A program made the position numbers and the translations under genes. This document shows, piece by piece, positions 3,746 to 60,109 of a stretch of DNA of 64,000 bases. This DNA is from a virus. Taxonomy: Duplodnaviria > Heunggongvirae > Uroviricota > Caudoviricetes. Below the pieces are notes generated by a model. It was given only the letters and a program-made list of their open reading frames with translations, made no database searches and had not been told where the DNA came from. The stretch is taken from the IMG/VR virus record IMGVR_UViG_3300045923_000005, positions 51,764-115,763 of that record; one strand, given 5' to 3'. Numbering within the stretch: the stretch's first letter is position 1; each line of letters starts with the position of its first letter.

Positions 3746-3811
3746 CTGGTACCCTCATAGTTCTTGTAAAGTCGTGGGATTGTTATATTATAGGTCAATT
3801 TAACTTAAGAG

Positions 3812-4027
3812 TCAAGTGCCATCATGTTGTGCTTTAACAAATGCTTGGTAAGACTTTGTCCAGTAAGCCTTTCTATCTGGTTTGTCAAATCTTGAACCCG
3901 CATAGACCGCGTCGGCTGGCACTTGGTTGGCCATCATGACTGTGATTGTGGTTTGTCCATCTTTAAGAGTACCAACGTGATCAAACAGTACTGCGTACCG
4001 GGCAACTGTTACGACTTCGTTGGCCAT
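3812..4027 (-). CDS. hypothetical protein (71 aa)
   Basis: small ORF between the kinase and glycosyltransferase genes; promoter-like box downstream of its stop. Confidence 0.3.
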   Translation of the reverse strand: MANEVVTVARYAVLFDHVGTLKDGQTTITVMMANQVPADAVYAGSRFDKPDRKAYWTKSYQAFVKAQHDGT

Positions 4028-8683: not shown

Positions 8684-10294
8684 TTAGAAAGGTACATCCT
8701 CATCGTCATCGCCAGTGCTCGTGTTGGCCAGACTCATGTTCTTATTTGCCGCATGACTCATGACGACCGACTCCAGAGCCGTCTTAGCATCCCGTTGGGC
8801 GACCGAGTCATTGCCCGGGATAACCGAAGTCTGACCATGGCTGGTCACCGTGACCATACCCATGTCGTCAGGATCACTGACCTTGATGGCGGTCTTATAC
8901 TTGACCGACAGAGTCGCAATGTTCATCGCGTTCTTGATCAGGTTGGTCGAAGTCGAACCACCGGCTGCCGGCTTCGGTGTGTTGACCGGTTTGGAAGGAG
9001 CAACCGGTTTCGCTGCCGGCTGCGTCACCGGCTTCTGAGGAGTGACCGGAGTGGCAGGCTTCTGGTTGGCCATGGCCTGTTGACTCGCCGAGCGCAAAGC
9101 GGTGATCGCCGGATTAGGAGTGAAGGCACCCGGATCGACCGGAGCCGTCTTGGGAGCAACCGGCGCACTGGCGACAGTTTCCTTCTCATCGATCTTGGCA
9201 TCGATTTTCGTGTAGAAGTCTAAGTAGACCGTCTTCACTTCATCATCGAACCGGTTCAAGCAGAGCTCGATAGCCTTGCGCTTGTTGTTCCAGATCACAT
9301 ACGCACGAGCGATGTGGGTCAGGCGGCGAGTGCTGATGACTTCATCCACACCACCTTCCTTGTAGGTCTTACGGATCAACTCCGCCCACTTGGCGAGGTT
9401 GGTCGCGAAAGAGAGGCTCGGTTTGTTCAGGCTGGTGAACAGATTCGTGAGAATCTTGATCTCCGTGTTCAGTGACGGATATTCCTGTTCAACCGTAATG
9501 GCGAACCGTTCCAGGAAGGCTTCGTTGAGGACGTTGGCTCCGATGAACCGACCGTCATCACTACCCTTACCCTTGGTGTTGGCAGTCGCGATGATGTTGA
9601 AGCCAGAAGCAGGTGTGATAAACTCACCGCGCTTCTTGTTGAAGTAGCCTTTACCTTCGAGCACCGGCTGGAGGCAGAGCAAGCGCTCTGAACCATAGTC
9701 GGTTTCGTCGAGGAGAAGGATCGCGCCACGCTTCATGGCGACGAGGACCGGACCATCACGCCATACGGTGTTGCCGTCGATCAACTCATACGAACCAATC
9801 AAATCGGTCTCGTCGGTTTCCTTGGTAATGTTCACGCGGATCAGTTCGCGCTGGAGCTCGGCACAAGCCTGCTCAGCACCCAGGGTCTTACCATTGCCGG
9901 ACTGACCGGTAATGTAGACTGGGTAGAAGATGCGGGATTCGATGATCCCACGGAGGTCGTTGTAAAAGCCGAACGGCACGTACACAGGGTCGCGCTCGGG
10001 AATGAAGCTGTCGGCCAGGGTCTTGATCTGAGGAGCGGCGAGCTCCTGTTTGATCGCATTGACCAGCACAGGCGAAGGAGCCTCGACCGGAGCGGTGATA
10101 TCACCACTCACCCGGTATTTGCCCCAAGCCTTGCGGTTAGCTTTGTTGTTCATGAATGCCCACGGCATCGGGAGGCTCCTAGCCTTGGTGTACTCCTCGA
10201 TCTGCTTGGTCGTTACCACGTTCGTGTTGAAGTGGTTGGCCATATTAGATATGAGCGAATTGAGCTCTTCCGGCGAGTAGCTGGGTTTGGGCAT
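8684..10294 (-). CDS. cobS: CobS-like AAA+ (MoxR-family) ATPase
   Basis: Walker A ITGQSGNGKT, Walker B ILLLDETDYG, sensor/arginine region; 536 aa with a Pro/Ala/Thr-rich low-complexity C-terminus. Confidence 0.8.
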   Translation of the reverse strand: MPKPSYSPEELNSLISNMANHFNTNVVTTKQIEEYTKARSLPMPWAFMNNKANRKAWGKYRVSGDITAPVEAPSPVLVNAIKQELAAPQIKTLADSFIPERDPVYVPFGFYNDLRGIIESRIFYPVYITGQSGNGKTLGAEQACAELQRELIRVNITKETDETDLIGSYELIDGNTVWRDGPVLVAMKRGAILLLDETDYGSERLLCLQPVLEGKGYFNKKRGEFITPASGFNIIATANTKGKGSDDGRFIGANVLNEAFLERFAITVEQEYPSLNTEIKILTNLFTSLNKPSLSFATNLAKWAELIRKTYKEGGVDEVISTRRLTHIARAYVIWNNKRKAIELCLNRFDDEVKTVYLDFYTKIDAKIDEKETVASAPVAPKTAPVDPGAFTPNPAITALRSASQQAMANQKPATPVTPQKPVTQPAAKPVAPSKPVNTPKPAAGGSTSTNLIKNAMNIATLSVKYKTAIKVSDPDDMGMVTVTSHGQTSVIPGNDSVAQRDAKTALESVVMSHAANKNMSLANTSTGDDDEDVPF

Positions 10295-10324
10295 TTCAGT
10301 TCATTCCATGTTTCGATTTCATAG

Positions 10325-10408
10325 AGGCTATTATACGCCTAATCGCACACAAAGGTTGCTGATTTAACTTATTTTCGAACATTCTTTTCAAAACGTTAAC
10401 TAGTACCG
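10325..10408. repeat. conserved intergenic cassette copy A (TATTATAC-N25-ATTTAACTTATT…CGTTAACTAGTACCG)
   Basis: near-identical ~85-bp element also at ~12912, 38122, 41510 (partly inverted), 46034, 51920; lies between cobT stop and cobS start. Confidence 0.7.
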
Positions 10409-12907
10409 TTATTCGGCCACTTCGGCGGCGAACTGGCGAGCGATCAGCTTATTGTTATGCTTCTTCTTCTGGTTGTAGCTGAAAGCCTGGAATAACTGGT
10501 CTTGGGTCATACCAGCATTCATGAAGCACTTGCTACCGTCGTTGATCACCGTAGTGTCCACATAATAATAGTTGCTATAACCAAGATTGGGCACCGCCAC
10601 GAAACCGGTGGTCTTCAGCTGCTTGGCTAGGTTGTTGAAGTCCTTCTTGAACTCTTCACGACCGGCCAAACGCTGGAGGATGTATGCCTCCTGGCCGAAG
10701 TAGTATCCAATGTGGCGGGCACCGGTAGTGGCCTGGATGAGCTCGGTCACAGAAGCCTGGAACATGTTGAACATGTAGTTGCCGCTGCTCAAACCAGCCT
10801 GCTCAGGGAGCACGCTGATCTTAGTGGTCGCGTCAGTCACACCGAACTTCGTGCGAGTGATCGACGCAGACGTCAGGTTATTCATGAACGCGGGCGGGAA
10901 CACCATGGAGTTGTTGCCATCACCGTCGCTCAGGTAGATCACGTTGACGATGTCACTGTGGTGCTCGTTCTTGAACTGCTTGATGATCTCTTTGGATGCG
11001 ACCAGAGTCTCAATAAATGGCGTGCCACCTAGGTTCATACCAACCGTCTCTAAACTCTGCGCAAGGCTGAAGTTGGGGACCGAACCGAATGCCGTCGCCA
11101 CATCGGCCGGACGACCGTAGGGACTGGCGAGCTCACCGAACATGTTGACCATGTTGAACGAGCGCTTGTAGTGGTTGCCGCTGAACTTGCTGCTCAGCAG
11201 ATGGCGCAGGCAGAAGTCACCGGCCTGAAGAGTAAAGGTATTGTCAGGGTCCTTGGAGACCGTAAACGCAGCGCGCTGGCTCTGTTTACCATCCTTGCCG
11301 AAGCAACCATAGTAGCCATGACCATCAGTGTAGCCGTAAAGGTCGAACGGGATACCGACGCGCTTACAGAAGGTCGCCAGGATCAGAGACTGCTCTACGA
11401 CGTAGCGCATGAAGTCGCTCATGCTGATCGACATATCCAGGAACATCACCATGCCGTGGCTTTTACCCTTGGCGATGGTAGTGACCTTGCGGAAGAGGTC
11501 GTTGGTCAGCTTATAGCGGGCCAGACGGTTGCCGTCCAGGTCACCACTCTTAGCGGTCATCTGGCGCGAGTACTGGCTCGCGTTCTTGCGCATCTCAAAC
11601 TCTTTGACCAGCAACTGGATGTAGTTCTTGTTGCGCGTATGGAATACTTTAGTGACGCCCATGGCGACGGCATCATAGTTCAGCTTGGTGCCATAGTGTT
11701 TCTGCATCTGGTAGCGGATGCCGGTCTCGAAGGTATCTAACACAGTCTTGTTGGAGACGATGATGTTTTCCAAATGCGCTTCCGGCATCTTGAAGAACAC
11801 CTGTGACTCAGCGGTGCGGTCATTCATACCCTCTTCCGCGTCACGAAAAGCCTTGTCAGTTTCAGAGTCCGGCTCAATTTCTACCGGCTGCTCAGATTCA
11901 CTGTCGTCCTCGTCATCTCCACTCTTACCACCTTCCTTGGGCTCAGAGTTTGAACGGCTGTCTGAAGACTCATCTTCATCGTCGGCCTCATAGGAATCCT
12001 CGTCAGAGTCACCGTCAGAAGCGTCGCCTTCAGAATCATCCTTGTCAGATTCCTCGCCGTCACCCTCGTCAGATTCTTCACCATCTTCATCAGAAGGCGA
12101 CTTGTTGTCACCCTCGTCCTCGGACTCTTCATCATCCGGGTCGGCGTCATTACCATCGGCATCTTGTTCCTCAGTCTCGCCGTCACCCTCGTTGGCGTCA
12201 TCACCTTCGTCAGACTCATCAGATTCCTCAGAGTCATCCGACTCCTCGTTCTGCTTCTTGTCCTTCTTAGGCTTAGGCTGCTTGGGTTGCGGCTGTTGTT
12301 TAGGTTTCGGCTGCGCATGAGCCTTCTGGTAGTCATACACTTCACGAGCCAACTGCTCCACCTGCGCCCAGGTGTCAGCCGTAGCAATGCGGTCCACGAA
12401 GGCTTGCTCTTCAGTGTTGAAGATCACGAGCGCTTGCGCACCGAGTTTGAAGTGGACGTTGATGCGGTCGATCAGACCCATCTTTGAATAGTCACCGTTC
12501 AGTTTCTTGATCTGAAACAGGTCGCGGTCGAACAGTTCCTGGTAAGCTTCCGCAAAGGCTTTGCGCAGGCCAGGATACTTGATCTTGATGATGCGCTCGA
12601 TGCGCGCGTCTTCAATGACGTTCAAGAAACGCTTGATGTTCTTGCGCTTCTTGTCGTTGACGATGGCGTCGTGCCAACCCTGGAGAGGCGTGTGAAGCGC
12701 ATGGCTGATTTCATGACCCATGAGCAGGTCATAGATCACACCGCTCATGTCCTTCCAGATCGGGCAGGTCAGGACGCGGGTTTCAAGGTTGAACTTGGCC
12801 GTCCGCACTTGCATGTGGCGAACGGTGATATTCTCGGCCGCCATCAGTTTGGCTAGCTGAGACTTATTCTCCTGGAGGGTTGCCGTCTTCTTCACAACTT
12901 TGATCAT
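10409..12907 (-). CDS. cobT: CobT-like protein: N-terminal HExxH, poly-acidic linker, C-terminal vWA domain
   Basis: 832 aa. LLMGHEISHALH (HExxH). Residues ~200-350 are almost pure D/E/S (…DDSEESDESDEGDD…). C-terminal MIDAS motif FLDMSISMS (DxSxS) typical of vWA. Paired with the MoxR ATPase. Confidence 0.8.
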   Translation of the reverse strand: MIKVVKKTATLQENKSQLAKLMAAENITVRHMQVRTAKFNLETRVLTCPIWKDMSGVIYDLLMGHEISHALHTPLQGWHDAIVNDKKRKNIKRFLNVIEDARIERIIKIKYPGLRKAFAEAYQELFDRDLFQIKKLNGDYSKMGLIDRINVHFKLGAQALVIFNTEEQAFVDRIATADTWAQVEQLAREVYDYQKAHAQPKPKQQPQPKQPKPKKDKKQNEESDDSEESDESDEGDDANEGDGETEEQDADGNDADPDDEESEDEGDNKSPSDEDGEESDEGDGEESDKDDSEGDASDGDSDEDSYEADDEDESSDSRSNSEPKEGGKSGDDEDDSESEQPVEIEPDSETDKAFRDAEEGMNDRTAESQVFFKMPEAHLENIIVSNKTVLDTFETGIRYQMQKHYGTKLNYDAVAMGVTKVFHTRNKNYIQLLVKEFEMRKNASQYSRQMTAKSGDLDGNRLARYKLTNDLFRKVTTIAKGKSHGMVMFLDMSISMSDFMRYVVEQSLILATFCKRVGIPFDLYGYTDGHGYYGCFGKDGKQSQRAAFTVSKDPDNTFTLQAGDFCLRHLLSSKFSGNHYKRSFNMVNMFGELASPYGRPADVATAFGSVPNFSLAQSLETVGMNLGGTPFIETLVASKEIIKQFKNEHHSDIVNVIYLSDGDGNNSMVFPPAFMNNLTSASITRTKFGVTDATTKISVLPEQAGLSSGNYMFNMFQASVTELIQATTGARHIGYYFGQEAYILQRLAGREEFKKDFNNLAKQLKTTGFVAVPNLGYSNYYYVDTTVINDGSKCFMNAGMTQDQLFQAFSYNQKKKHNNKLIARQFAAEVAE

Positions 12908-12911
12908 GAAG

Positions 12912-12996
12912 ACTATTATACTCTTAATTTGACCGGCAGGGTGCTAATTTAACTTAATCCCGAACAATCTTTTCCGAAACGTTAACTAGTACCGGT
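12912..12996. repeat. conserved intergenic cassette copy B
   Basis: gaagacTATTATACtcttaatttgaccggcagggtgctaATTTAACTTAatcccgaacaatcttttccgaaaCGTTAACTAGTACCGG. Confidence 0.7.
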
Positions 12997-13094
12997 TTCT
13001 ATGCACGTCTCTGACAGTTGTCCGCTCTCCGGGCTCGATCTGTCTCTGTTCTGACCTGTACCGACTATTATACGCTGATCGGAGACAGAGACCG

Positions 13095-13397
13095 TTAACC
13101 ACCACTCGTTTCTAACAAATAGTTGGCCGCATTGGCCAGATGTGATGTATCTTCCTTGAAGTATCCTAAACCTCTGTTGCATCCATCGCATAGAAGACCG
13201 CGTACCTTACCGGTATCGTGATCATGATCTATGAACGGTCGTGACATCTTGAATCCGCCATCAGCAGGAAACGCCTTACCACAGATGGCGCAACAGTTAT
13301 TCTGAGCTAACCTCATTTCTTCAAATTGGTTCTCAGTAATTCCATACCGTCTTATGTTATCTCTACGGTGTATCTCTTTGGTCTTGATTTGCGGCAT
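13095..13397 (-). CDS. recombination endonuclease VII family protein (T4 gp49-like)
   Basis: IDHDHDTGKVRGLLCDGCNRGLG, the EndoVII H-N-H/zinc signature; 100 aa. Confidence 0.8.
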   Translation of the reverse strand: MPQIKTKEIHRRDNIRRYGITENQFEEMRLAQNNCCAICGKAFPADGGFKMSRPFIDHDHDTGKVRGLLCDGCNRGLGYFKEDTSHLANAANYLLETSGG

Positions 13398-30982: not shown

Positions 30983-32650
30983 TTATGAAAGAAGATTGTC
31001 CACACGCTTGTTCAACTCTTGTGAATTAGCCGTTGGTTGTGGCTCTGCAGCGCCAGCAGGAGCGGCTGGCTTAGCAGCCGGATTACCCGGACCAGGTAGG
31101 TTAGGATTTGGAGGAGAGCCACCGCCAGAGTCCTCGGCTTCCTTAGCCAATGTGTCCTGTTCTTTCTTGATTTCTTTGTCCATCTTCTTGATTTCATCTT
31201 CGTCAAGCTGAAGGATGTTCTCTTGGACCCAACGCTTGCTAAAGTATTCGCCAACATATGGAGTCAACAAGATCAGGGTGTTGACGCGGTTAGTGATTAG
31301 CTCGGCTTCCTTCAATTCCGTGAAGTTGTTATCCATGACGAACTTGTAATGGCAATCTTGCTTGAACTGATCCCATTCTTCAAGAGTACAGACACCCTTC
31401 AGGGTCAGCTGACGCTTCAGCAACTCATCAAACAGGATCGTGAAACGATTGCGCAGCTTGACGATGAATTTGTTGAACTTGATTTCATCGCGTGTGATGG
31501 TATCAGTCTTGCCCAAAGAGAAACCTTGGTTGGTTTCCATACGGGACACAGGAACGTTCAATGCGCGGTAGAGCTTCTTCTCGAAGTACAGGACAGAGTC
31601 CATGTTGTCGAAACCCTGACCGGCTGGAAGTGTCGTGATTTCAGTACTCTTATCACCTGAGCGACGTGGCATCCAGAAGTCTTCAAGCATAGAAAGATGC
31701 TTGCGATCATCCATAACCTGACCAGTGCTTGCGTCATATGTTAGCTTGTTGCGGAACTTGGTCATCAAGTCCTTCATGTAGGCTTCCGCCTTAGCACGAG
31801 GAAGGTTGCCAGTATCACAATAGAACACACGACGCTCAGGAGCGCGGGTTACTTTGTAGATGACGGTTGCGTCTTCGATGAACCGCAATTGGTTCATTGG
31901 ACGAATGGCCTTGTGTAGATAGCTCAGCACAACAGACTTGGCCGGGTCGAACAGACCAGAAGTCAAGTGGATGACTGAGTCTTCAGATAGCTTGACGCCA
32001 CCGGAGAAATTGCCGATGATCTGAGGAGTCTGAACGTTGTTGTTGACGATCTTTTCGTTGTAAAGATAGAAGACTTCAATCTTCTTGATTACGTCTACGC
32101 CTTCTTCGTTCTTCTCTTTCGTGATGTTACGAATCTTACGGATACGACGTGGGTCAATGAACGTCAGCTGCTGGATACCATCGCGAGGGTTCTCCGGATT
32201 GATTGTGACGTTCCAATAGGCTCGTCCGTCAACGTACCAACGACGGAAGATGTCAGATCCATAGCGGTGGAAGTCGAGAAGCTTAAGAACATTCTCGAAC
32301 TCATCCCGAATCATAGTCTTAATGTTGTCTGGCTGGTCGAGCTCGTCTAGTTCGATCTGGACGCACTTGCCACGCTCGTCATGGACGATCGCTTCATTGA
32401 TAATATCGTCGATGGCATTTTCCATTTCTGGTTGCATAGCCATCGTGCGGTACTTGGAGAGAAGGTCAACTTCACTTCTGTATGACCCATCGAGATCGAC
32501 GTAAATTCCGTAATGTGCACCGGAAGTGATATTGACAGCGCCGTCATCCAACGCAGGTGAAACAACGCTATTTACTATCGGCTGTTCGCCGTCTTCTTCC
32601 TTACCATCGCGTTGGATAGTGAAGCCAAATAGTTTGATAGGTGCTGCCAT
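30983..32650 (-). CDS. 20: portal vertex protein gp20
   Basis: DIFRRWYVDGRAYW versus T4 DHFRRWYVDSRIFF; VTRAPERRVFYCDTGNLPRAKAEAYM versus T4 [26 protein letters not shown]. Confidence 0.9.
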   Translation of the reverse strand: MAAPIKLFGFTIQRDGKEEDGEQPIVNSVVSPALDDGAVNITSGAHYGIYVDLDGSYRSEVDLLSKYRTMAMQPEMENAIDDIINEAIVHDERGKCVQIELDELDQPDNIKTMIRDEFENVLKLLDFHRYGSDIFRRWYVDGRAYWNVTINPENPRDGIQQLTFIDPRRIRKIRNITKEKNEEGVDVIKKIEVFYLYNEKIVNNNVQTPQIIGNFSGGVKLSEDSVIHLTSGLFDPAKSVVLSYLHKAIRPMNQLRFIEDATVIYKVTRAPERRVFYCDTGNLPRAKAEAYMKDLMTKFRNKLTYDASTGQVMDDRKHLSMLEDFWMPRRSGDKSTEITTLPAGQGFDNMDSVLYFEKKLYRALNVPVSRMETNQGFSLGKTDTITRDEIKFNKFIVKLRNRFTILFDELLKRQLTLKGVCTLEEWDQFKQDCHYKFVMDNNFTELKEAELITNRVNTLILLTPYVGEYFSKRWVQENILQLDEDEIKKMDKEIKKEQDTLAKEAEDSGGGSPPNPNLPGPGNPAAKPAAPAGAAEPQPTANSQELNKRVDNLLS

Positions 32651-33141
32651 TAAATAACCCTGCCTTGTCTATCTCTATTTAGGGACCGACCTTTTCGGTA
32701 ACCGGTTGGAGGGAGGACAGTTTTCAGTATGTAGATATTGTCCTGGCCGTTGGTGTACCAAACGCAAGGTGACTTACCCTTCATACGTTCAGAGATGATC
32801 TCTCGTGCCTTCTCGCTGTGACGCTTACCGTGCATTGGATTAGCCTGTCCGTGGTGCTGATGCTTGCCTCGGTTGCTCTCGCTTATCCTACGCTTCTGTT
32901 CTTCTGACTTCGCAACACCAGTAAAGGTTTTGCGTGCAGTGTGGGAGTTTACGATGCGGGTTGCTTCTTCCTTAGTTACTAGACCAAGAAGACCCTTGTA
33001 GGCTAGCTCGTCTTCCCATCTACCGAATTGTAAGAACAATTGGCGATGAGCCTCAGCATGTTCTTCAACAGTCAAAAGTGCAATGTTTTCAGGGGAATCG
33101 GAGCCACCGGAATGGCGAGGTACAATGTGATGTTTGTGCAT
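32650..33141 (-). CDS. HNH homing endonuclease with NUMOD3 repeats
   Basis: HHIVPRHSGGSDSPENIALLTVEEHAEAH (HNH) plus GVAKSEEQKRRISESNRGK / GKRHSEKAREIISERMKGK; inserted between gene 20 and gene 19. Confidence 0.75.
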   Translation of the reverse strand: MHKHHIVPRHSGGSDSPENIALLTVEEHAEAHRQLFLQFGRWEDELAYKGLLGLVTKEEATRIVNSHTARKTFTGVAKSEEQKRRISESNRGKHQHHGQANPMHGKRHSEKAREIISERMKGKSPCVWYTNGQDNIYILKTVLPPTGYRKGRSLNRDRQGRVI

Positions 33142-33245: not shown

Positions 33246-33328
33246 GCGTCCGTGGCGAAATGCATACGCACCGAGCTACCAACTCGGCGGTTAACACCAT
33301 GCGGGGTCGATTCCCGCCGGACGCACCA
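33246..33328 (+). tRNA. tRNA-like gene (type II-like, long variable arm; encoded CCA); identity ambiguous
   Basis: Acceptor GCGTCCG/CGGACGC, discriminator A, CCA. T-arm GCGGG-GTCGATT-CCCGC. Anticodon stem CCGAG/CTCGG with loop CTACCAA (formal anticodon ACC). 13-nt variable region. G at position 54. On the opposite strand to all neighbours; possibly a pseudo-tRNA. Confidence 0.45.
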
Positions 33329-33337
33329 CCCTAAACT

Positions 33338-33904
33338 TTACTGCGCTGCGATTGCGAAGTCTCCAGCGCCAGAGCTCAAGTAGTATTGAACTGCTAGGGT
33401 GACGGTGAACTCTTCGATCGTATCATTCTGGTTCCAGTCGACTTCGATTGGAGAAACATCCAATGGCCAGATACCGATGAATTGGTATTGAGCGATTGGA
33501 GAACCAACCTTGCCGTACTGAGTAACAAGAGCATCAGAACCGTATCCGCCGTCGATTACAGTTGCTGCTGGATTGCGCAAGTTAGCCGTTGGATCATTGA
33601 TACCATTCGCCCATTGTTCGAAAGCAGAACGCAAGGTGAAATCTTCGTCGTTGATGACTTGGATAGTCCAGTCAGCAAACGTGCGGTTGCCCGCAAACTT
33701 AACTTCACGGCCGAAGTAGTACAAAGGAGCCATGCCAATAGAGGTACCAGGAAGCTGAGCGGCCTTGACTCTGAAAGGAGTCTGAGAGCCGGCAGCGCCT
33801 GCAAGTTGGATCCAGTTAGGGAAAGGAAGCTGCACGTCGAAAAGGTTCGCACGAGCGCCGTCAAATGCCAAACTGGTACGAAACTGAGTCACATCGAAAG
33901 CCAT
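33338..33904 (-). CDS. 19: tail tube protein gp19
   Basis: GNRTFADWTIQVINDEDF / FTVTLAVQYY versus T4 GDRTFDDWTVTVMNDEAH / FEVTLALDYW. Confidence 0.85.
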   Translation of the reverse strand: MAFDVTQFRTSLAFDGARANLFDVQLPFPNWIQLAGAAGSQTPFRVKAAQLPGTSIGMAPLYYFGREVKFAGNRTFADWTIQVINDEDFTLRSAFEQWANGINDPTANLRNPAATVIDGGYGSDALVTQYGKVGSPIAQYQFIGIWPLDVSPIEVDWNQNDTIEEFTVTLAVQYYLSSGAGDFAIAAQ

Positions 33905-33908
33905 ACTC

Positions 33909-34301
33909 TTACACTCCTATCCAAATTCGTTTGCCGGTAACTGGATCTTTCTTCCAACTCTTACCAGCAAAGGCTGCGCCCATCTTTTGCTTGGACTCGG
34001 CCGTGTGGGACTTACCTTTCATGCCCACGTGGTTCTTTGTTATATTTAGTCTGGCTGCTTCAGTATGCTTATACGCACGCTTTGCCGCTTTCTCTTCTTC
34101 AGACTTCTTCAATCCTAAATGTGCTCGTCTATTCTTTTCCTTAGTTTCTTCAGTATGAGATTTCCCGTACCAAAATGCCTCTTTTCCTTTAGGGACAGGA
34201 GGTCCTGGAATCTTCTCACAACCTTCTGGTCGTGTTAGATTAAGAGTATCACCCATTGTTGGGTTCCACTCTAATCCTAATGCTTCAGCCAGTCCTCTCA
34301 T
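33909..34301 (-). CDS. NUMOD3-repeat DNA-binding protein, paralogue of the 17099..17536 product
   Basis: N-terminus MRGLAEALGLEWNP versus MSRQLADVLGLEWNP; repeats GKSHTEETKEKNRRAHLG / GKSHTAESKQKMG. Confidence 0.5.
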   Translation of the reverse strand: MRGLAEALGLEWNPTMGDTLNLTRPEGCEKIPGPPVPKGKEAFWYGKSHTEETKEKNRRAHLGLKKSEEEKAAKRAYKHTEAARLNITKNHVGMKGKSHTAESKQKMGAAFAGKSWKKDPVTGKRIWIGV

Positions 34302-34304: not shown

Positions 34305-36071
34305 TTACTGAGTACCAGACAGACCAATCACCTCAGAGAAGCTTACACCCTGAGCAACAGCAACGAAGTTCAACAAGATGAAGTTGATGCTGTAGGCTGG
34401 CTGGATGTAGATGTCTCCAACGAACTGGTTGGCGTTGACGATATCAGCAGTGTTGTTGCTTCCGTCACAGACAACCTGGAATGCGCTGATACCGCGCTGT
34501 CCCTGGATCGTTCTTAGGTAAGGAGTGATCAAGGCAACGAACTGCGCGCGAGTGAACGTATCATTGAACTCGAACAAGCTGGCACGGGATGCCAAACTGA
34601 TCTGTTGCTCAATGTTGATGAACAAACGGCGAACGTTGATGTGATCAAACGCTGAGTTGAAGTTCAAGTGAGTCTTGTCACCATACAGTAATGTTCCCTG
34701 ACCAGGTAGGCTGACAACAGGGTTGACGGCTGCCTGGTAAAGAGTGTCACGATCTGTCTTACCTGGGTTGTAGGCAAGCTTGGTGACGTTGTTGATAACA
34801 CCGCGCTGCACGCCTGCAGGAGACCACCATGGGGCCTTAACTTGATCTGTACGTGCACATAGACCGGCGATGTCACCGTTCAATGGGATCCAACGATACT
34901 TGTCGTTGTATTGGTCATACTGGTACTTGTAACCGGTATCTAGGACACCGTAAGAAGACCATGCGACGTTCTGAGACCATGCGACTACCGCTGCTGCGGC
35001 AGCACCGGCACCAACTGCCTGGCAAGCAGACAATGGGGCAGAGGCGAAGGCAACGCAGTCCATACGCTCTTGAGCGACGTCCTGGATAGCGAATGACTGA
35101 AGGGTTGTGTTGGCAGTACCGGTCATCAACAGGTTGATCTGAACGAATGCTGGATCTTCGAACAAAGCCAAAGAGTTGATGGTGTTACCGGCTGCGCCGA
35201 CAACTTGCGTTCCGTTGTTACCGAACTGGAAGTTGGCGATGTTTGCCGTTGGATCTGCACCGAAGCCACCGGCTCCGACCATAGAGTTGACGGTGTTGCC
35301 CCAACCTACGACGTTAGCAGATGGGACACCTGCAACGTAGACGTACTGAGACTGGCGCCAGATGACTTCCTTGTAATAGTTGCTCTGACCAAATGGGTTC
35401 AATGCGTCAGATGCACGAGATAGACCCTGGTAGACTTCAAGGACGGCATTTGCGGTTCCAGTGAACTGACCACCAGCATCGACAACAAGAATGTGAAGTT
35501 CATCACCGGTGACCTGACCATTCGTCTGTTGAGTTACGTATGGAGTGGTGTTTGGTGCCCAGCTGAAGTAGCCAGCGAAGTTGTACAATGGGCTAGAAGT
35601 GTTTGCACGGATTGCGTTGAAAGCAGCCGTGTTAGCGAACGTATAGACCGCAAGACTGTCACCAAGAGAACCTGGGAAGCGAGCGATGTAGTTGTTTGCG
35701 GCAAGCAAAGAGTTGTAGATACCGTTGAAGTAAACTTCTTGGTTGTCAATTTCCATTGCGGCTGCTGCGGTGTTTGCACCAGATGCGCCGGTAGCGTTCA
35801 ACATGTTTGGAGCCTGATCGCGGACGATCTGGATGTTGTTGCTGTAGCTTAGGAAGTTCCAAGCAGTGAAGAATGATTCGGCTGTGCTGTCTGTTGGATC
35901 ACCAAAGGTGTTGACCAACTGCACCTGACTAGAGATCGGGGTGATGAAGTTGACAGGACCCCAATTGAATGGGCCAGCGAATCCGCCGATAGACGTTGCA
36001 ACCGCAGGGATACCTGTGGTTAGGTCTGCTTCAGCGATGTTAATGCCTGGGGAAATTGGAAAATTTGCCAT
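34305..36071 (-). CDS. 18: tail sheath protein gp18
   Basis: YKYQYDQYNDKYRWIPLNGDIAGLCARTD…INVRRLF…YIQPAYSINFILLNFVA versus T4 YKYQYDKYNDVNRWVPLAADIAGLCARTD…INVRRLF…YIQPARSINYITLNFVA. Confidence 0.9.
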   Translation of the reverse strand: MANFPISPGINIAEADLTTGIPAVATSIGGFAGPFNWGPVNFITPISSQVQLVNTFGDPTDSTAESFFTAWNFLSYSNNIQIVRDQAPNMLNATGASGANTAAAAMEIDNQEVYFNGIYNSLLAANNYIARFPGSLGDSLAVYTFANTAAFNAIRANTSSPLYNFAGYFSWAPNTTPYVTQQTNGQVTGDELHILVVDAGGQFTGTANAVLEVYQGLSRASDALNPFGQSNYYKEVIWRQSQYVYVAGVPSANVVGWGNTVNSMVGAGGFGADPTANIANFQFGNNGTQVVGAAGNTINSLALFEDPAFVQINLLMTGTANTTLQSFAIQDVAQERMDCVAFASAPLSACQAVGAGAAAAAVVAWSQNVAWSSYGVLDTGYKYQYDQYNDKYRWIPLNGDIAGLCARTDQVKAPWWSPAGVQRGVINNVTKLAYNPGKTDRDTLYQAAVNPVVSLPGQGTLLYGDKTHLNFNSAFDHINVRRLFINIEQQISLASRASLFEFNDTFTRAQFVALITPYLRTIQGQRGISAFQVVCDGSNNTADIVNANQFVGDIYIQPAYSINFILLNFVAVAQGVSFSEVIGLSGTQ

Positions 36072-37750: not shown

Positions 37751-38119
37751 TTACTGGCTGACGACGTGAGTGTATGCGGTCGCGTATTTCGCGGTCGGCG
37801 GAGCGACGACGGTGTTGCCATCTTTGTCCGTGTAAATGCGGAGTTGCTGCTTGGAAACCCGTTTGGCCGGAACTATCCGACCGTTGGCGTAGTGCTTGCC
37901 GATGTTTTGGATTTCGATGAGGGTCGATTCGACCGGAACGAAAGTGAACCGGGTGCAACCTCGTGAAAAGGCTGTCGGGACCGCCTGCTCTTCCTGTGAG
38001 CTAATGACGTCCGTAACGATGTACTTGTTCTGCCAAGCACCGTCGGTCGCGAAAAGGCTACCGACTTCGATACTGAACTCATTGGCCTTGACGCGGCGAA
38101 CGTTGTTTGCTTGATTCAT
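37751..38119 (-). CDS. hypothetical protein (122 aa)
   Basis: first gene after cassette copy C; GTATAATAG 7 nt upstream of the ATG. Confidence 0.4.
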   Translation of the reverse strand: MNQANNVRRVKANEFSIEVGSLFATDGAWQNKYIVTDVISSQEEQAVPTAFSRGCTRFTFVPVESTLIEIQNIGKHYANGRIVPAKRVSKQQLRIYTDKDGNTVVAPPTAKYATAYTHVVSQ

Positions 38120-38121
38120 GT

Positions 38122-38205
38122 GGACTATTATACACCAAATCTAGAAGATAGGGTGCTGATTTAACTTATTTCCAAAGTATCTTTTAGAAACGTTAACTAG
38201 TACCG
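38122..38205. repeat. conserved intergenic cassette copy C
   Basis: ggacTATTATACaccaaatctagaagatagggtgctgATTTAACTTATTTccaaagtatcttttagaaaCGTTAACTAGTACCG. Confidence 0.7.
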
Positions 38206-38382
38206 TTATTTGCGGCCAATCAGATGAACCTGTGAATCAGGAATGACTTCATAGGCTCCTTTGTTGGCCGCAATGGCGACGGTGAACTTCTTAGGAGGAG
38301 ATCCGCAGAAGATGCAGGTCTTGTACCCTAGTTCCAAACGACGCGGCTCGATGATCTCTTCACAGAGCGGTCGCGAACACAT
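38206..38382 (-). CDS. zinc-ribbon protein (~58 aa; internal ATG of the 94-aa table ORF)
   Basis: CSRPLCEE…CIFCG (CxxxxC…CxxC); the ATG overlaps the stop of an upstream 59-aa TM ORF as TAATG. Confidence 0.35.
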   Translation of the reverse strand: MCSRPLCEEIIEPRRLELGYKTCIFCGSPPKKFTVAIAANKGAYEVIPDSQVHLIGRK

Positions 38383-41452: not shown

Positions 41453-41509
41453 TGAATATGATAACCTCCCAACCAGGGAGTTGTGGTATACAACATAGAG
41501 GGTATTATA

Positions 41510-41566
41510 CTCTAAATTGTACGCAAGTAAAGCGCAATTTAACTTAATGACCGGTACTAGTTAACG
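41510..41566. repeat. conserved intergenic cassette copy D (3' box inverted)
   Basis: ggTATTATACtctaaattgtacgcaagtaaagcgcaATTTAACTTAatgaCCGGTACTAGTTAACG. Confidence 0.6.
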
Positions 41567-41847: not shown

Positions 41848-42094
41848 TGAACGCCTTCTCTACACGAGCCTTGATGCGCCGATAAGCCTTGCGGGTTATG
41901 CGTCGACGGTATCCAGCCGCACTCTCTTCTCCAATCCAGCGACCATAGTTGTCGTAACGTCGGACGCGACGTTCTAGATTGTCTGCTATGGCACGAGCGA
42001 TGGCCATAGCAGCTGTTTTGGGTTGACCGTACCGGCGACCACCCACTTCCATACAGAGGATTATCTTGGCTTTAATTTTGAAGTAAGGTCTCAT
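41828..42094 (-). CDS. hypothetical basic protein (88 aa)
   Basis: coupled ORF. Confidence 0.3.
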   Translation of the reverse strand: MRPYFKIKAKIILCMEVGGRRYGQPKTAAMAIARAIADNLERRVRRYDNYGRWIGEESAAGYRRRITRKAYRRIKARVEKAFNDYVIA

Positions 42095-42531
42095 ACCAGG
42101 TCCTTGAGCTCTTGGTACATGGTGTGATACTTGATCACACGTTCAATGTCTTTGGGGCGCACACCCTTTAGACGGCGGATGTCGCTGTTGTGCCGGAGGT
42201 CTGCCAGCTTGACGTGGATAGCGTCCTTGTTGGCTTTGATACCGGCTAGATACTCTTCAGGCGTCTGGCCGTCGATCTTAGTCAATGCCATGATGCCATC
42301 GGCAATCCGGTCATTGAAGACCTGCCGGAGGAATCCGTAAGAGACGTTGGTGTCTTCGATCAAGTCATGACCCAGTGCTATGCACTGGAGCTCCTCGTCA
42401 TCAGTCTTGGTGTAGTGCATGACCTTGAGGCAGTGGAGCACGTAGGGCTGGCCACCTTTGTCAAACTTACCAGAGAATTTGTTGGTGACTAGGACCAACA
42501 TGATGTCGAGCAATTCGCCTTTTTTGATCAT
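42091..42531 (-). CDS. small (p)ppGpp hydrolase, RelA/SpoT-family HD domain (Mesh1-like)
   Basis: HCLKV…IALGHDLIEDT…KLADLRHNSD match the SpoT hydrolase signatures H…LLHDVVEDT…KLADRLHNMR. Confidence 0.7.
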   Translation of the reverse strand: MIKKGELLDIMLVLVTNKFSGKFDKGGQPYVLHCLKVMHYTKTDDEELQCIALGHDLIEDTNVSYGFLRQVFNDRIADGIMALTKIDGQTPEEYLAGIKANKDAIHVKLADLRHNSDIRRLKGVRPKDIERVIKYHTMYQELKDLV

Positions 42532-43045
42532 GACTTAAGTATACTAGATTGTACGGAGAAAGGGGAACGATTTAACTTAATACAGAACTTTATTTTCCAG
42601 ATCACGACCAACATTCATGGGCCATACGATCGGCGTCACCTGGTATATTTTCGCCACAATTGAAACACCATGTTGCGCGCTTATCGTTGGATAGCTGGGC
42701 TGCTAGGGCAGCAGCTTGTGGGTGATCTTGTTCCTGATCACGTCGAAGCTGCTCCTCTAGTGCGGCCTTAGCTGTGGATGCGCTTGATGACATAGGGAAC
42801 CTCTAGACCGAGGATCTCCCGCACGATATCGCCGATGATGCTCTGGACGTAGGCATGCTTGGAGCAGTAGGCTTCTACGGTCTCACCGTTATGAAGGTTG
42901 TCCCAGATCTCACGACGAGCGGTGCTCTCGTTGATCCAGGTCTTCAAATTCTCGACGTGTACATTAAAATTGTCAGCCATTTATTTCACCCTGCTTTCAT
43001 AGTAAGCTCAAAGAGTGGACTGGTTGCCCAGTCCACTGATTCAGA

Positions 43046-43999: not shown

Positions 44000-44053
44000 A
44001 AGTTCTCCTTAATTATAACAATCAACATCAAACAAATAGACCAGACCAAATAA

Positions 44054-44278: not shown

Positions 44279-44306
44279 TATATTATACGCCTGTTATCTG
44301 TAAGAG

Positions 44307-45806: not shown

Positions 45807-46030
45807 TAGGCTGCCACTCCCATCAGCTGAACCGGGTCCGACGGCATGAAGCCAAGAAGCTGAAGCTTCTGGGTCATGCGACGATCGTTGATCAGATCGG
45901 CCTGTTCCTTGCGGGCCACGACGAGCGCGTCCAGCTTGGAGAGGGCAACGCCCAGGACTTCTTTGGTCTCGATGCCACACTTGGTGGTCGTGATCTTGAA
46001 GACGTGATAAACAAGGTTTGCTGTATTCAT
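45806..46030 (-). CDS. hypothetical protein (~74 aa; internal Met of the 115-aa table ORF)
   Basis: The table ORF reads through cassette copy E. A start at MNTANLV… places GTATAATAC 7 nt upstream of the ATG. Confidence 0.3.
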   Translation of the reverse strand: MNTANLVYHVFKITTTKCGIETKEVLGVALSKLDALVVARKEQADLINDRRMTQKLQLLGFMPSDPVQLMGVAA

Positions 46031-46033
46031 GGT

Positions 46034-46117
46034 AAGTATTATACGCTGGTTCTTATGAATAGGGGACCAATTTAACTTATTTTCGAACAATCTTTTGAAA
46101 GCGTTAACTAGTACCGT
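46034..46117. repeat. conserved intergenic cassette copy E (between divergent genes)
   Basis: GTATTATACgctggttcttatgaataggggaccaATTTAACTTATTTtcgaacaatcttttgaaagCGTTAACTAGTACCG. Confidence 0.7.
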
Positions 46118-46186
46118 TTTGGGTGATTTTGGGTGATAAATAGGTTGGAACACCCACCCGCACCACTTATTTCCTGGAGAAATAAA

Positions 46187-51676: not shown

Positions 51677-51943
51677 TTAGACGTCCAGACCCCAAATTTG
51701 GCTGCGTATAAGAGCACAGAGCTCACGCATGCGGTCCCACTCATCATTGTCACGGTGAGGAACACGGCTCGAATGCAGCAGTGAATCAATCACATAGACG
51801 TCATGTCGTAGACGATTGATCGCATCCATCATCCGGAGAGCGCAGTCGATGTCGCCCAGTACAAGCCGGGTCTTGACACCATTCACGAGGACAGTAACGA
51901 TAGAGTGTTTAGTCATGGGAGCTATTATACGCCATTCGTACAA
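51677..51943 (-). CDS. hypothetical protein (88 aa)
   Basis: first gene after cassette copy G. Confidence 0.3.
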   Translation of the reverse strand: MYEWRIIAPMTKHSIVTVLVNGVKTRLVLGDIDCALRMMDAINRLRHDVYVIDSLLHSSRVPHRDNDEWDRMRELCALIRSQIWGLDV

Positions 51944-52003
51944 GAAGTCAATGGCCGAGTTAACTTATTTCACATTTATTTACTGCAGTCAATAAGTTAA
52001 ACC
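51920..52003. repeat. conserved intergenic cassette copy G (variant with internal inverted repeat TTAACTTATTT…AATAAGTTAA)
   Basis: gCTATTATACgccattcgtacaagaagtcaatggccgaGTTAACTTATTTcacatttatttactgcagtcAATAAGTTAAAc. Confidence 0.6.
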
Positions 52004-60015: not shown

Positions 60016-60109
60016 TATTATACTCGCTTTATTTGTAAGAGTTTACCAGCCGCTGTTGCCCCAATTACGTTCACCGTCTTCCTCACCAACAACCTCCCAT
60101 ATACTCGCT

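What the first reader, a model, noticed from the sequence alone, without database searches (positions are those of the whole stretch)
10325..10408. Conserved ~85-bp intergenic cassette repeated at least 6-7 times, reminiscent of mobile promoter cassettes
Near-identical elements occur at 10325, 12912, 38122, 41510, 46034, 51920, with degenerate copies at 3783 and 42545. On the gene-sense (minus) strand each reads CGGTACTAGTTAACG – N20 – AATAAGTTAAAT(C/T)AGCACC – N18 – GTATAATAG, followed within 5-9 nt by a start codon. The A/T box sits where a sigma70 UP element would be, and GTATAATAG is a perfect -10. The distal GTTAACTAGTACC box is a near-palindrome containing HpaI and SpeI sites and is inverted in copy D. 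The cassettes flank accessory genes: the cobT/cobS pair, small ORF arrays and the divergent plus-strand GT. This is what would be expected if they mediate modular gene shuffling.
Basis: seen in the sequence. Interest (0 to 1): 0.65.

Follow-up and report, generated by a model that had tools for sequence, protein, structure and literature searches.

The report
Portable leaderless promoter cassettes in phage
A roughly 90-base control module, repeated in front of unrelated accessory genes of a T4-like aquatic phage and its few close relatives, looks like a portable promoter that starts transcription at the gene's own ATG, and it marks the spots where related phages have swapped genes.

Summary
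The repeat is real. The window has four full copies, one rearranged copy and two partial copies. All lie between genes, on the gene-sense (minus) strand.

A full copy reads: stop codon of the upstream gene; the exact 15-mer CGGTACTAGTTAACG, which is an imperfect dyad; a conserved linker; AATAAGTTAAAT at about -51 to -40; CAGCACCC where a -35 element would sit; GTATAATA; 7 nt; ATG. There is no Shine-Dalgarno sequence, no -35 hexamer in the full copies, and no stable hairpin.

The family was found in only three other phage lineages and in no bacterial or archaeal genome. In a syntenic relative whose tail sheath protein (gp18) is 83% identical, cassettes sit at the four orthologous sites. The first gene after each of that relative's three full cassettes has no counterpart in the window. 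One "cassette + ORF" unit recurs in a third phage in an unrelated context.

Best reading: a promoter cassette for the host's primary-sigma RNA polymerase, used before the late phase, that gives leaderless mRNAs and acts as a hot spot and vehicle for gene exchange. It works like PeSLs (promoter-early stem-loop cassettes of T4-type phages) but is not a strict member of that family.

Promoter activity, the transcription start, timing and the box-binding factor are all inferred. I rate it a new variant of a known kind, of moderate interest.

The parts
10320..10408 (-). Cassette A, full copy, between cobT (10409-12907) and cobS (8684-10294). Box 10394-10408, A/T box 10362-10373, GTATAATAG 10328-10336, ATG 10320-10322. 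The ATG opens an 8-codon mini-ORF that ends 1 nt before the cobS ATG at 10294.
   Evidence: (86.6 bits). The cobS N-terminus matches phrog_249 from residue 13.
12905..12994 (-). Cassette B, full copy, upstream of cobT. Box 12980-12994, A/T box 12947-12958, GTATAATAG 12913-12921. ATG 12905-12907 is the cobT start.
   Evidence: (83.9 bits). The cobT N-terminus aligns with phrog_459 (protein residue 12 = profile position 4).
38117..38205 (-). Cassette C, full copy, in the gp18-gp17 hyperplastic region. Box 38191-38205. ATG 38117-38119 starts a 122-aa ORFan.
   Evidence: (81.0 bits). It is orthologous to L209 cassette r3, but the downstream gene differs.
46028..46116 (-). Cassette E, full copy, between divergent genes. 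Box 46102-46116. ATG 46028-46030 starts a 74-aa gene. The plus-strand glycosyltransferase gene lies on the other side.
   Evidence: (79.1 bits). It is orthologous to L209 cassette r1, where a 71-aa gene is inserted after the cassette.
41494..41566 (-). Cassette D, rearranged copy. The exact box is inverted (41552-41566) and sits 4 nt from the A/T box. There is no linker. TTTACT-N16-TATAAT is present. ATG 41494-41496 opens a 15-codon mini-ORF that overlaps (ATGA) the start of the 96-aa gene at 41452.
   Evidence: The mini-ORF is a relic of the 3' end of the 104-aa gene that follows the orthologous cassette r2 in L209.
51914..51969 (-). Cassette F, partial copy. It has AATAAGTTAAC, TTGACT-N16-TATAAT and 7 nt before ATG 51914-51916 (79-aa gene). 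There is no distal box. A second AATAAGTTAA box lies inverted at about 51991-52001.
   Evidence: (21.3 bits)
42529..42598 (-). Cassette G, degenerate copy. It has ATTAAGTTAAAT, a TATACT -10 and 6 nt before ATG 42529-42531 (146-aa HD-domain phosphohydrolase). There is no distal box.
   Evidence: family D4; 18.9 bits. It is conserved at the orthologous site of L209 (3619-3683).
3787..3815 (-). Not a cassette copy. This is a TTGACT-N17-TATAAT promoter-like site with TAAGTTAAAT in its spacer, 41 nt upstream of the ATG at 3745.
   Evidence: not found by the profile

Best explanation
Each cassette is a self-contained, portable expression module of one narrow lineage of T4-like aquatic myoviruses.

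**Proposed mechanism (inferred unless marked shown).**
- The host's primary-sigma RNA polymerase recognises the extended -10 element GTATAAT(A).
- AATAAGTTAAAT at about -51 to -40 acts as an UP-like or activator-contact element.
- The perfectly kept dyad box (AACGGTAC-TAG-TTAACGTT, about -86 to -72) is the operator of a dimeric, probably phage-encoded DNA-binding protein.
- Transcription starts at the A of the ATG, which lies 7 nt after TATAAT with a pyrimidine at -1. The mRNA is therefore leaderless and needs no Shine-Dalgarno sequence.

**Why it would be portable.** The module carries everything from the upstream boundary to the start codon. The box holds stop codons in two frames on each strand. 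Any ORF joined to the ATG would therefore be expressed.

**Role in genome evolution.** The repeated 90-nt homology, or the module boundary at the ATG, would serve as a preferred junction for insertion, replacement and deletion of accessory genes, as proposed for PeSLs.

**Shown here:** the anatomy, the distribution, the positional conservation, the gene turnover next to cassettes, and one shared cassette+ORF module.

**Inferred:** promoter activity, the transcription start site, timing in infection, the binding protein, and a causal role in recombination.
For: **Anatomy and conservation.**
- GTATAAT is invariant in 10 aligned copies from two phages, TAAGTTAAAT likewise. The 15-bp box has 2.0 bits per position in the eight copies that carry it in direct orientation.
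- Copies are always intergenic and in gene sense.
- Upstream ORFs end 0-2 nt before the box or at the box's own TAA.

**Leaderless arrangement.**
- TATAAT-N7-ATG occurs in 14 of 19 copies, with N6 in 4 and N8 in 1. The start is always ATG, and each of the 19 sequences read has C or T at -1.
- The ATG opens an ORF of at least 56 codons in 15 of the 18 copies where it can be read. The cobT start is confirmed by profile alignment.
- In 656 kb of other myovirus loci that carry cobS, 0 of 7 TATAAT-N7-ATG sites open an ORF.
- In copies that do have a -35 hexamer (D, F, L018, L064, L052/L090, L038), the A/T box lies just upstream of it, as an UP element would.

**Portability.**
- Window versus IMGVR_UViG_3300044796_000056: only the cassettes match (74-86% nt) by blastn and tblastx.
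- The 14 cassette-led proteins compared are mutually unrelated.

**Gene turnover in the syntenic relative L209.**
- L209's gp18 is 83% and its gp17 90% identical to the window's. Its cassettes r1, r2, r3 and rG lie at the sites of window cassettes E, D, C and G.
- The first genes after r1, r2 and r3 are 3 of the 7 L209 genes (out of 30) that lack a window ortholog (hypergeometric p = 0.0086).
- The mini-ORF of window cassette D is a relic of the deleted 104-aa gene.

**Shared module.** The 71-aa gene after r1 is 72% identical to the cassette-led gene of L015. Homology runs from the box to the TAATG stop/start overlap and stops on both sides.

**Location.** Five of the seven window copies lie in the 24-kb gp18-gp17 hyperplastic region.

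**Box variants are genome-specific.** The window has 5 of 5 CGGTACTAGTTAACG. L209 has 3 of 3 of the type GTTAAC-T(C/G)GG-TCACG, in either orientation.
Against: - There are no transcript data. Promoter activity, the transcription start site and timing all rest on sequence resemblance.
- Full copies lack a -35 hexamer, so unaided host polymerase may not use them.
- In 3 of the 14 cassettes of the window and the IMG/VR relative the ATG opens only an 8-15-codon mini-ORF. In L209 r3 the real start is probably a second ATG, 18 nt downstream, preceded by AAGGAG. The +1 ATG is therefore not always the functional start.
- Three of the eight gene-content differences between the window and L209 are not next to any class A cassette. 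The association rests on one 10-kb comparison and three full cassettes.
- No tandem cassette pair flanking an indel was seen, which is the configuration the PeSL mini-circle model needs. The r1 insertion is bounded only by the 6-nt repeat ATGAAT.
- Orthologous cassettes are no more alike than non-orthologous ones. This fits strong selection on function just as well as exchange.
- The high third-position GC (GC3) of cassette-led genes in the window is not clearly repeated in the relative.
Confidence: 0.6

Rival explanations
1. These are ordinary lineage-specific promoters and nothing more. The long conservation reflects selection on a complex promoter (polymerase plus factor sites). Variable genes sit behind them only because newly acquired accessory genes survive where a promoter already exists. 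The cassette plays no mechanistic part in recombination.
For: - Orthologous and non-orthologous copies are equally similar, which suggests all are held near one functional consensus.
- No tandem cassette pair flanks an indel.
- Three of eight gene-content differences are not beside a class A cassette.
- A second promoter family (class B) also heads a window-specific 1.3-kb block.
Against: - A cassette+ORF unit is shared by L209 and L015, with homology ending exactly at the module's edges and unrelated flanks.
- Deletion and insertion end-points lie exactly at the cassette ATG.
- The first genes after all three full L209 cassettes are the variable ones (p = 0.0086).
Confidence: 0.3
2. These are activator-dependent, middle-type promoters. 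The full copies cannot be used by unmodified host polymerase because they lack a -35 element. A dimeric phage protein bound to the dyad box, and perhaps to the AGTTAA repeat in the A/T box or to CAGCACCC, recruits the polymerase. The class B promoters (TTRACTCTTACA-N10-11-GTATAAT) would then be the true early promoters. This reading is compatible with the cassettes also being portable.
For: - There is no -35 hexamer in copies A, B, C, E, L5a-e and r1-r3, but CAGCAMCC is conserved at that place.
- The 15-bp dyad box is perfectly kept, with genome-specific variants that differ between orthologous sites. This is the pattern expected for co-evolution with a protein encoded by the same genome.
- The direct box at a fixed distance goes with promoters that lack a -35. 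Copies D and F, which have a -35, have the box displaced or missing.
- A paper on the methylophage Melnitz says marine T4-likes lack identifiable MotA-type middle promoters (PMC9004378).
Against: - No candidate regulator was found. Ten conserved small proteins of the hyperplastic region have no DNA-binding Pfam domain.
- Box orientation and distance vary. The GTTAAC-to-GTTAAA spacing, counted by eye on the sequences, is 32, 33, 39, 22 or 21 bp.
- There are no expression data.
Confidence: 0.3
3. This is a PeSL in the strict sense, or another RNA-level element. The box would form a stem-loop terminator or processing site at the end of the upstream transcript, followed by an early promoter.
For: - The box is an imperfect palindrome, lies immediately after the upstream stop codon, and is followed by 3-4 T.
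Against: - Box hairpins are only -0.1 to -4.8 kcal/mol.
- Whole-cassette folds have z-scores of +0.4 to -1.9.
- RNAalifold on 10 copies predicts 0 pairs.
- There is no Rfam match at gathering threshold or at E<=1.
- The terminator scan finds nothing at the boxes.
- The box occurs in both orientations.
Confidence: 0.04
4. The element is borrowed from the host or shared with it: a copy of a host promoter or of a host regulator's binding site.
For: - The A/T box combined with a TTGAC -35 and a TATAAT is seen in a few unrelated metagenome contigs.
Against: - A scan of 185,579 species-representative genomes for CTAGTTAACG-N18-24-TAAGTTAAAT gave 2 hits. Both are unconvincing: neither has the rest of the cassette, one is in a Pseudomonadota MAG and one in an archaeal MAG, and I estimated about 7 hits by chance.
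- Box variants differ between related phages.
Confidence: 0.05

Closest known systems
PeSLs (promoter-early stem-loops) of T4-type phages RB49/phi1, T4/PST and KVP40/nt-1 (Arbiol et al. 2010, PMC2839356; Comeau et al. 2014, PMC4122927)
   Same: - Small composite regulatory cassettes repeated in intergenic spaces.
- Concentrated in hyperplastic regions.
- An A/T-rich part upstream of a sigma70-type -10, ending at the start codon.
- Located beside insertions, deletions and replacements of ORFans between related phages.
- Cassette + ORF behaves as the unit of exchange.
- A conserved palindromic motif upstream, which the PeSL authors themselves suggested might bind a protein.
   Different: - No stable stem-loop or terminator. 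A 15-19-bp imperfect dyad of -0.1 to -4.8 kcal/mol takes its place.
- No -35 hexamer in the full copies.
- No Shine-Dalgarno sequence. The ATG lies 7 nt after the -10, so the mRNA would be leaderless.
- The host is unknown and the phage lineage is only distantly related (portal at most 52% identical to any isolate).
- No tandem pairs flank indels.
- Mini-circles were not tested.
T4 early promoters with A-rich upstream (UP-like) regions (from my own knowledge of the T4 literature; no paper read here)
   Same: Phage promoters conserved over an unusually long stretch, with a near-consensus -10 and an A/T-rich element around -42 to -52. They head small non-essential genes.
   Different: T4 early promoters have a strong -35 (GTTTAC) and normal leaders with ribosome-binding sites. 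They have no distal dyad box.
T4 middle (MotA/AsiA-dependent) promoters
   Same: A good -10 with no -35 hexamer, and a different conserved motif in the -30 to -38 region.
   Different: The motif here is CAGCACCC, not the MotA box TGCTTtA. motA and asiA were not looked for. There are also two further conserved upstream elements.
Leaderless-mRNA promoters (for example lambda cI from PRM, and many genes of Actinobacteria and Deinococcus; from my own knowledge)
   Same: A -10 hexamer 6-8 nt upstream of an AUG start codon, no Shine-Dalgarno sequence, and AUG used exclusively.
   Different: Here the arrangement is part of a repeated 90-nt cassette in a T4-like phage. No transcription start has been mapped.

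Membership tests
PeSL (promoter-early stem-loop cassette) | Stem-loop that acts as a transcription terminator just upstream of the promoter | tested here: not met
   Box hairpins are -0.1 to -4.8 kcal/mol. Fold z-scores are +0.4 to -1.9. RNAalifold predicts 0 pairs in 10 copies. The terminator scan finds none at the boxes.
PeSL (promoter-early stem-loop cassette) | Strong sigma70-like promoter: -35 hexamer, N17, -10 hexamer | tested here: inconclusive
   The -10 TATAAT is perfect in all copies except G. A -35 hexamer is present only in copies D (TTTACT-16) and F (TTGACT-16). Full copies A, B, C and E have CAGCACCC there and are not called by the scan.
PeSL (promoter-early stem-loop cassette) | A/T-rich region upstream of the -35 position | tested here: met
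   AWTAAGTTAAAT is invariant at about -51 to -40.
PeSL (promoter-early stem-loop cassette) | Shine-Dalgarno sequence and start codon at the 3' end of the element | tested here: not met
   The start codon is present, but it lies 7 nt after TATAAT, which leaves no room for a Shine-Dalgarno sequence.
PeSL (promoter-early stem-loop cassette) | Many copies, preferentially in hyperplastic regions | tested here: met
   Five of seven copies lie in the 24-kb region of small ORFs between gp18 (34305-36071) and gp17 (60763-62436). The other two flank cobT and cobS.
PeSL (promoter-early stem-loop cassette) | Located next to insertions, deletions or replacements between related phages, with cassette+ORF as the unit of exchange | tested here: met
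   In the window versus L209 comparison, gene content differs directly after cassettes E/r1, D/r2 and C/r3. The cassette+71-aa ORF module is shared with L015 in an unrelated context.
PeSL (promoter-early stem-loop cassette) | Formation of mini-circles by recombination between neighbouring cassettes | not testable with these tools
   This needs inverse PCR on infected cells (PMC2839356).
Sigma70-type promoter with UP element | A/T-rich element at -40 to -60 that contacts the alpha subunit's C-terminal domain and raises promoter strength | tested here: inconclusive
   Position and A/T content fit. In copies with a -35 hexamer the box lies directly upstream of it. However, the box is far more sequence-specific (10-12 invariant bases) than UP elements usually are. 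Binding cannot be tested here.
T4 middle (MotA-dependent) promoter | MotA box (a/t)(a/t)(a/t)TGCTTtA centred at -30, with motA/asiA genes in the phage | tested here: not met
   No TGCTT appears in any aligned copy at -25 to -38 (alignment A2). motA and asiA were not searched for.
Leaderless mRNA | Primary 5' end at, or within a few nt of, the A of an AUG start codon | not testable with these tools
   The sequence prerequisites are met: TATAAT-N7-ATG, a pyrimidine at -1, ATG only, and no Shine-Dalgarno sequence. The 5' end must be mapped by experiment.
Known RNA families (Rfam 15) | Match to a covariance model | tested here: not met
   No match at gathering score in the whole window. None at E<=1 around cassettes B and C.

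The most novel reading that the evidence does not exclude
The full cassettes are the missing middle-mode promoters of aquatic T4-like phages that lack MotA and AsiA. A phage-encoded dimeric activator binds the dyad box and replaces the -35 contact. Its specificity co-evolves with the box, which is GGTAC-TAG-TTAAC in this phage and GTTAAC-TSGG-TCAC in the relative whose gp18 is 83% identical. The resulting transcripts are leaderless, a translation mode not described for T4-like phages. The same cassette doubles as the vehicle for gene exchange.
Probability: 0.2. Interest if true: 0.75.

Novelty: new variant of a known kind. Interest (0 to 1): 0.5.

Why it matters
**Generality of promoter cassettes.** If confirmed, regulatory-cassette-driven gene shuffling, so far described for coliphage-, Yersinia- and Vibrio-infecting T4-types, would also operate in a deep-branching aquatic T4-like lineage. 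Here it would use a differently built cassette, with no terminator hairpin, no -35 hexamer and no ribosome-binding site. That would suggest that portable promoter units are a general way for T4-like genomes to take up and try out accessory genes.

**Leaderless genes in a T4-like phage.** The fixed TATAAT-N7-ATG arrangement predicts a whole class of leaderless phage mRNAs. This is easy to test with 5'-end mapping, says something about the unknown host's translation apparatus, and bears on start-codon and gene calling in such phages.

**A handle on an unknown regulator.** The genome-specific dyad box gives a concrete DNA bait for finding the regulator, in a group where the control of pre-late transcription is unresolved.

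Tried and rejected
- **RNA element or terminator.** Rejected on single folds, box hairpin energies, RNAalifold and three Rfam searches.
- **Coding repeat.** Rejected. All copies are intergenic, and the box and A/T box carry stop codons.
- **Cyanophage isolates.** blastn (distant mode) of a cassette against 50,697 phage records found no match. The phage is only distantly related to any isolate: portal at most 52% identical, and cobS about 80% identical over 150-185 nt only.
- **63 other myovirus loci carrying cobS (656 kb).** No cassette and no box.
- **Metagenome scan.** TAAGTTAAAT-N24-30-GTATAAT-N6-8-ATG gave 116 loci, almost all chance or unrelated A/T-rich promoters. Only L064 is a true further cassette, and L052/L090 are partial.
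- **Genome scan of 185,579 species.** Two unconvincing hits, so there is no sign of a host origin.
- **More distant relatives.** Phages with gp18 71% identical (L211, L213) have neither the cassette nor the class B promoter.
- **Pho-box or NtcA-site readings of the GTTAAC/GTTAAA repeats.** Considered by eye on the sequences. The spacings do not fit (20 and 12 nt against an 11-nt period; GTA-N6-AAC against GTA-N8-TAC). Not pursued.
- **Homing-endonuclease target.** Rejected on logic. Five intact sites in the phage's own genome would be self-destructive.
- **GC3 as a sign of foreign origin.** Cassette-led genes in the window average 0.66 against a genome mean of 0.54, but the signal is not clearly repeated in the relative (0.61 against 0.56).
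- **Papers on cyanophage promoters.** Doron et al. 2016 is not held. No held paper describes this motif or leaderless cyanophage genes.
- **Candidate regulator.** A Pfam search of ten conserved small proteins of the hyperplastic region found nothing.
Full report
**1. What the window is.**
The 64-kb window is part of a T4-like myovirus. It encodes gp46/gp47, the gp41 helicase, gp23, gp22, gp20, gp18 and gp17, nearly all on the minus strand. Late-type promoters (CTAAATA / ATAAATA) lie in front of the structural genes. It is identical to Logan contig SRR35360338_34990.

It is only distantly related to isolated phages. The portal is at most 52% identical to that of Methylophilales phage Melnitz and about 48% to those of Synechococcus phages. 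The host is therefore unknown, and "cyanophage" is not established. Between gp18 (34305-36071) and gp17 (60763-62436) lies a 24-kb hyperplastic region of small ORFs.

**2. The observation.**
The 15-mer CGGTACTAGTTAACG occurs five times exactly, once inverted. A profile built from the full copies finds four full-length cassettes at 10319-10411, 12903-12997, 38115-38208 and 46026-46119. It also finds three partial ones at 41494-41551 (with its inverted box), 51912-51971 and 42545-42598.

The site at 3783 is not a copy. It is a TTGACT-N17-TATAAT promoter with TAAGTTAAAT in its spacer. Full copies are 73-79% identical within the window, so they are not near-identical.

On the gene-sense strand a full copy reads, in order:
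- the stop codon of the upstream gene, 0-2 nt before the box or using the box's own TAA;
- CGGTACTAGTTAACG;
- the linker TTTYNRAAAGATTGTTCGNNA;
- AWTAAGTTAAAT;
- YAGCACCCT;
- about 16 nt of spacer;
- GTATAATA;
- 5 nt ending in a pyrimidine;
- ATG.

Information content per position in eight direct-box copies is 2.0 bits for the box, 1.84 for the A/T box, 1.82 for the -10 and 1.5 for GCACCC. Even the linker and spacer hold 1.0-1.3 bits.

**3. Promoter anatomy.**
Taking the A of the ATG as +1, TATAAT is at -13 to -8, the A/T box at -51 to -40 and the box at -86 to -72.

The full copies have no -35 hexamer and are not called by the sigma70 consensus scan. Copies D (TTTACT-16-TATAAT) and F (TTGACT-16-TATAAT) are called. 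In copies that do have a -35 hexamer, here and in other contigs, the A/T box sits directly upstream of it, as an UP element would.

A second promoter family, class B (TTRACTCTTACA-N10-11-G-TATAAT-AGA), occurs ten times in the window and also in the relatives. The phage therefore has two non-late promoter families plus late promoters.

**4. Leaderless arrangement.**
- I found 19 cassettes in all: 7 in the window, 7 in the IMG/VR phage, 4 in L209 and 1 in L064. The ATG follows the -10 hexamer by 7 nt in 14 of them, by 6 nt in 4 and by 8 nt in 1. The start is always ATG, and each of the 19 sequences read has C or T at -1.
- The ATG opens an ORF of at least 56 codons in 15 of the 18 copies where it can be read. 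For cobT the start is confirmed by alignment to phrog_459.
- There is no room for a Shine-Dalgarno sequence. About a third of the other genes in the window have one.
- In 656 kb of other myovirus loci that carry cobS, none of the 7 TATAAT-N7-ATG sites opens an ORF. The arrangement is therefore a trait of this lineage.

I infer that transcription starts at the A of the ATG and that the mRNAs are leaderless. This has not been shown.

Three cassettes open mini-ORFs of 8-15 codons that end at or overlap the next start codon. For window copy D, the mini-ORF is demonstrably the remnant of a deleted gene (section 7 below).

**5. Not an RNA element or a terminator.**
- Folds of the six copies are not more stable than shuffles (z = +0.4 to -1.9).
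- The box alone folds at -0.1 to -4.8 kcal/mol.
- RNAalifold on ten copies predicts no pair.
- Rfam finds nothing.
- The box occurs in both orientations.

Read with its flanks, the box is an imperfect dyad, AACGnTA-N5-TAnCGTT. That is the usual form of an operator for a dimeric protein.

**6. Distribution.**
- No match in 50,697 phage records.
- None in 63 cobS loci.
- None in 185,579 species genomes apart from 2 unconvincing hits.
- The metagenome scan added only L064 and the partial L052/L090.

True carriers are:
- IMGVR_UViG_3300044796_000056, with 7 cassettes in the 21.5 kb held from it (loci L005, L015, L018; L020, from a second contig, is identical to L018 where they overlap);
- Ga0672860_0000701 (L209);
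- Ga0116229_10156383 (L064).

Relatives with gp18 71% identical have neither promoter family. A relative with gp17 77% identical (L215) has class B promoters and sigma70 promoters that carry pieces of the cassette.

**7. Comparative test of the shuffling idea.**
*Window versus the IMG/VR phage.* Only the cassettes match (74-86% nt) by blastn and tblastx, apart from one HNH endonuclease gene. The 14 cassette-led proteins are mutually unrelated.

*Window versus L209.* L209's gp18 is 83% and its gp17 90% identical to the window's, and the 10 kb upstream of gp18 is collinear. Twenty-one of its 30 genes have blastp orthologs in the window, and two more match by tblastx. L209 has cassettes at exactly the sites of window cassettes E, D, C and G. 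Directly downstream of each full cassette the gene content differs:
- After E/r1, L209 has an extra 71-aa gene.
- After D/r2, L209 has genes of 104 and 138 aa. The window has a mini-ORF, homologous to the last 14 codons of the 104-aa gene, followed by unrelated genes of 96 and 79 aa.
- After C/r3, L209 has a 62-aa lipoprotein gene and the window has an unrelated 122-aa gene.

All three first genes after the full L209 cassettes fall among its 7 genes without a window ortholog (hypergeometric p = 0.0086).

*A shared module.* The extra 71-aa gene is 72% identical to the cassette-led gene of L015 in the IMG/VR phage. The nucleotide homology runs from the box to the TAATG stop/start overlap and ends there on both sides. 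Nothing else is shared between the two loci. This is a cassette+ORF module in two unrelated contexts.

*Caveats.* Three of the eight differences are not beside a class A cassette. No tandem cassette pair was seen. The sample is small.

**8. The box.**
All five window copies are identical. All three L209 copies carry another variant (AACGTTAAC-TCGG-TCACGTT, or its reverse complement with a central GGG), and each is inverted relative to its window ortholog. Outside the box, orthologous cassettes are no more alike than non-orthologous ones.

Either the copies are homogenised within a genome, or the box co-evolves with a factor encoded by the same genome. Both point to a specific protein. None was identified.

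**9. Comparison with what is known.**
The closest known kind is the PeSL (PMC2839356, PMC4122927).
- Features shared: a repeated intergenic promoter cassette, an A/T-rich upstream part, location in hyperplastic regions, association with indels and replacements, and cassette+ORF modules.
- Features not met: the terminator stem-loop, the -35 hexamer in full copies, and the Shine-Dalgarno sequence.

The cassette therefore works like a PeSL but is not one in the strict sense. I rate it a new variant of a known kind.

The more novel reading is that the full copies are activator-dependent, middle-type promoters. This group is said to lack recognisable middle promoters (PMC9004378). The evidence does not exclude this reading, and I give it about 0.2.

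**10. Verdict.**
- Observation: partly confirmed.
Its core, promoter cassettes tied to gene shuffling, passed the comparative test that could be run.
- Inferred from sequence only: promoter activity, the transcription start site, timing, the binding protein and a causal role in recombination.
- Interest: 0.5.

Noticed in passing
window minus strand, CTCTTACA starting at 60041, 59495, 50045, 44306, 40474, 21436, 19408, 18037, 8670, 1948; also L005 2711, L020 34/4173/8534/9595, L209 6212, L214 11650, L215 11690/12197, L217 5066: A second conserved promoter family (class B): (T/A)(T/A)RACTCTTACA-N10-11-G-TATAAT-AGA. It is close to a sigma70 TTAACT-N17-TATAAT promoter, with an extra conserved CTTACA at the position of the T4 MotA box. 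It is shared by all close relatives. Some copies are also followed by an ATG after 6-9 nt; others have a normal leader with GGAG.
   Followed up: partly
window 60110-60763 (-): An HNH-type homing endonuclease gene sits between the terminase gene gp17 and a class B promoter. In relatives L214 (gp17 90% identical) and L217 (92%) the class B promoter follows gp17 directly, so this is an insertion. Its only homolog in the IMG/VR phage (L018/L020, apparently frameshifted) follows a cassette-led 58-aa ORF.
   Followed up: partly
window 33909-34256 (-) and 32650-33141 (-): Two small genes with faint NUMOD3 hits (possible homing-endonuclease relatives) lie between gp18 and gp19 and between gp19 and gp20. 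Both are absent from the syntenic relative L209.
   Followed up: no
window 33246-33328 (+): ARAGORN calls a tRNA-Gly with the unusual anticodon ACC on the plus strand, opposite to the surrounding genes, in the 196-nt gap between the gp19 gene (33338-33904) and the NUMOD3-like gene at 32650-33141.
   Followed up: no
window 42981-44306 (-): A 1.3-kb block is absent from L209. It is led by a class B promoter (44281) and holds a 73-aa ORF and a 317-aa Band_7 (SPFH) gene. The Band_7 gene has a 74% identical homolog in the more distant relative L213, so L209 probably lost it.
   Followed up: partly
window 12998-13095 (-): Upstream of cassette B lies a further GCGTATAATAG (13066) with no ATG behind it. 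It sits in the loop of an inverted repeat (GGTCTCTGTCTC ... GAACAGAGAC). The fold is not more stable than shuffles (z = -0.09) and there is no Rfam match.
   Followed up: partly
window 8684-12907 and cassette-led genes 37751-38119, 42091-42531, 45806-46030: Five of the seven genes led by class A cassettes have GC3 of 0.68-0.72, above the 90th percentile of the window's genes (mean 0.54). Genes led by class B promoters average 0.53. The effect is weak in the IMG/VR relative (0.61 against 0.56).
   Followed up: partly
window 12029-12239 (within cobT): A run of degenerate direct repeats (37-nt family, 6 copies) lies in the cobT gene. From the repeat sequences I take it to encode an acidic Asp/Glu-rich stretch; I did not translate it.
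   Followed up: no
window 46121-46187 (+): The plus-strand glycosyltransferase gene that diverges from cassette E is preceded by a late-promoter-like GATAAATAG (46136) and GGAG. Its real start is probably the ATG at 46187, not the GTG at 46133.
   Followed up: no
L064 1700-1860: In a metagenome contig, the box variant CCGTTAACTCGGTCACGG lies between two back-to-back promoters (TTGACT-N16/17-GTATAAT on each strand). This suggests the box can serve divergent promoters.
   Followed up: no
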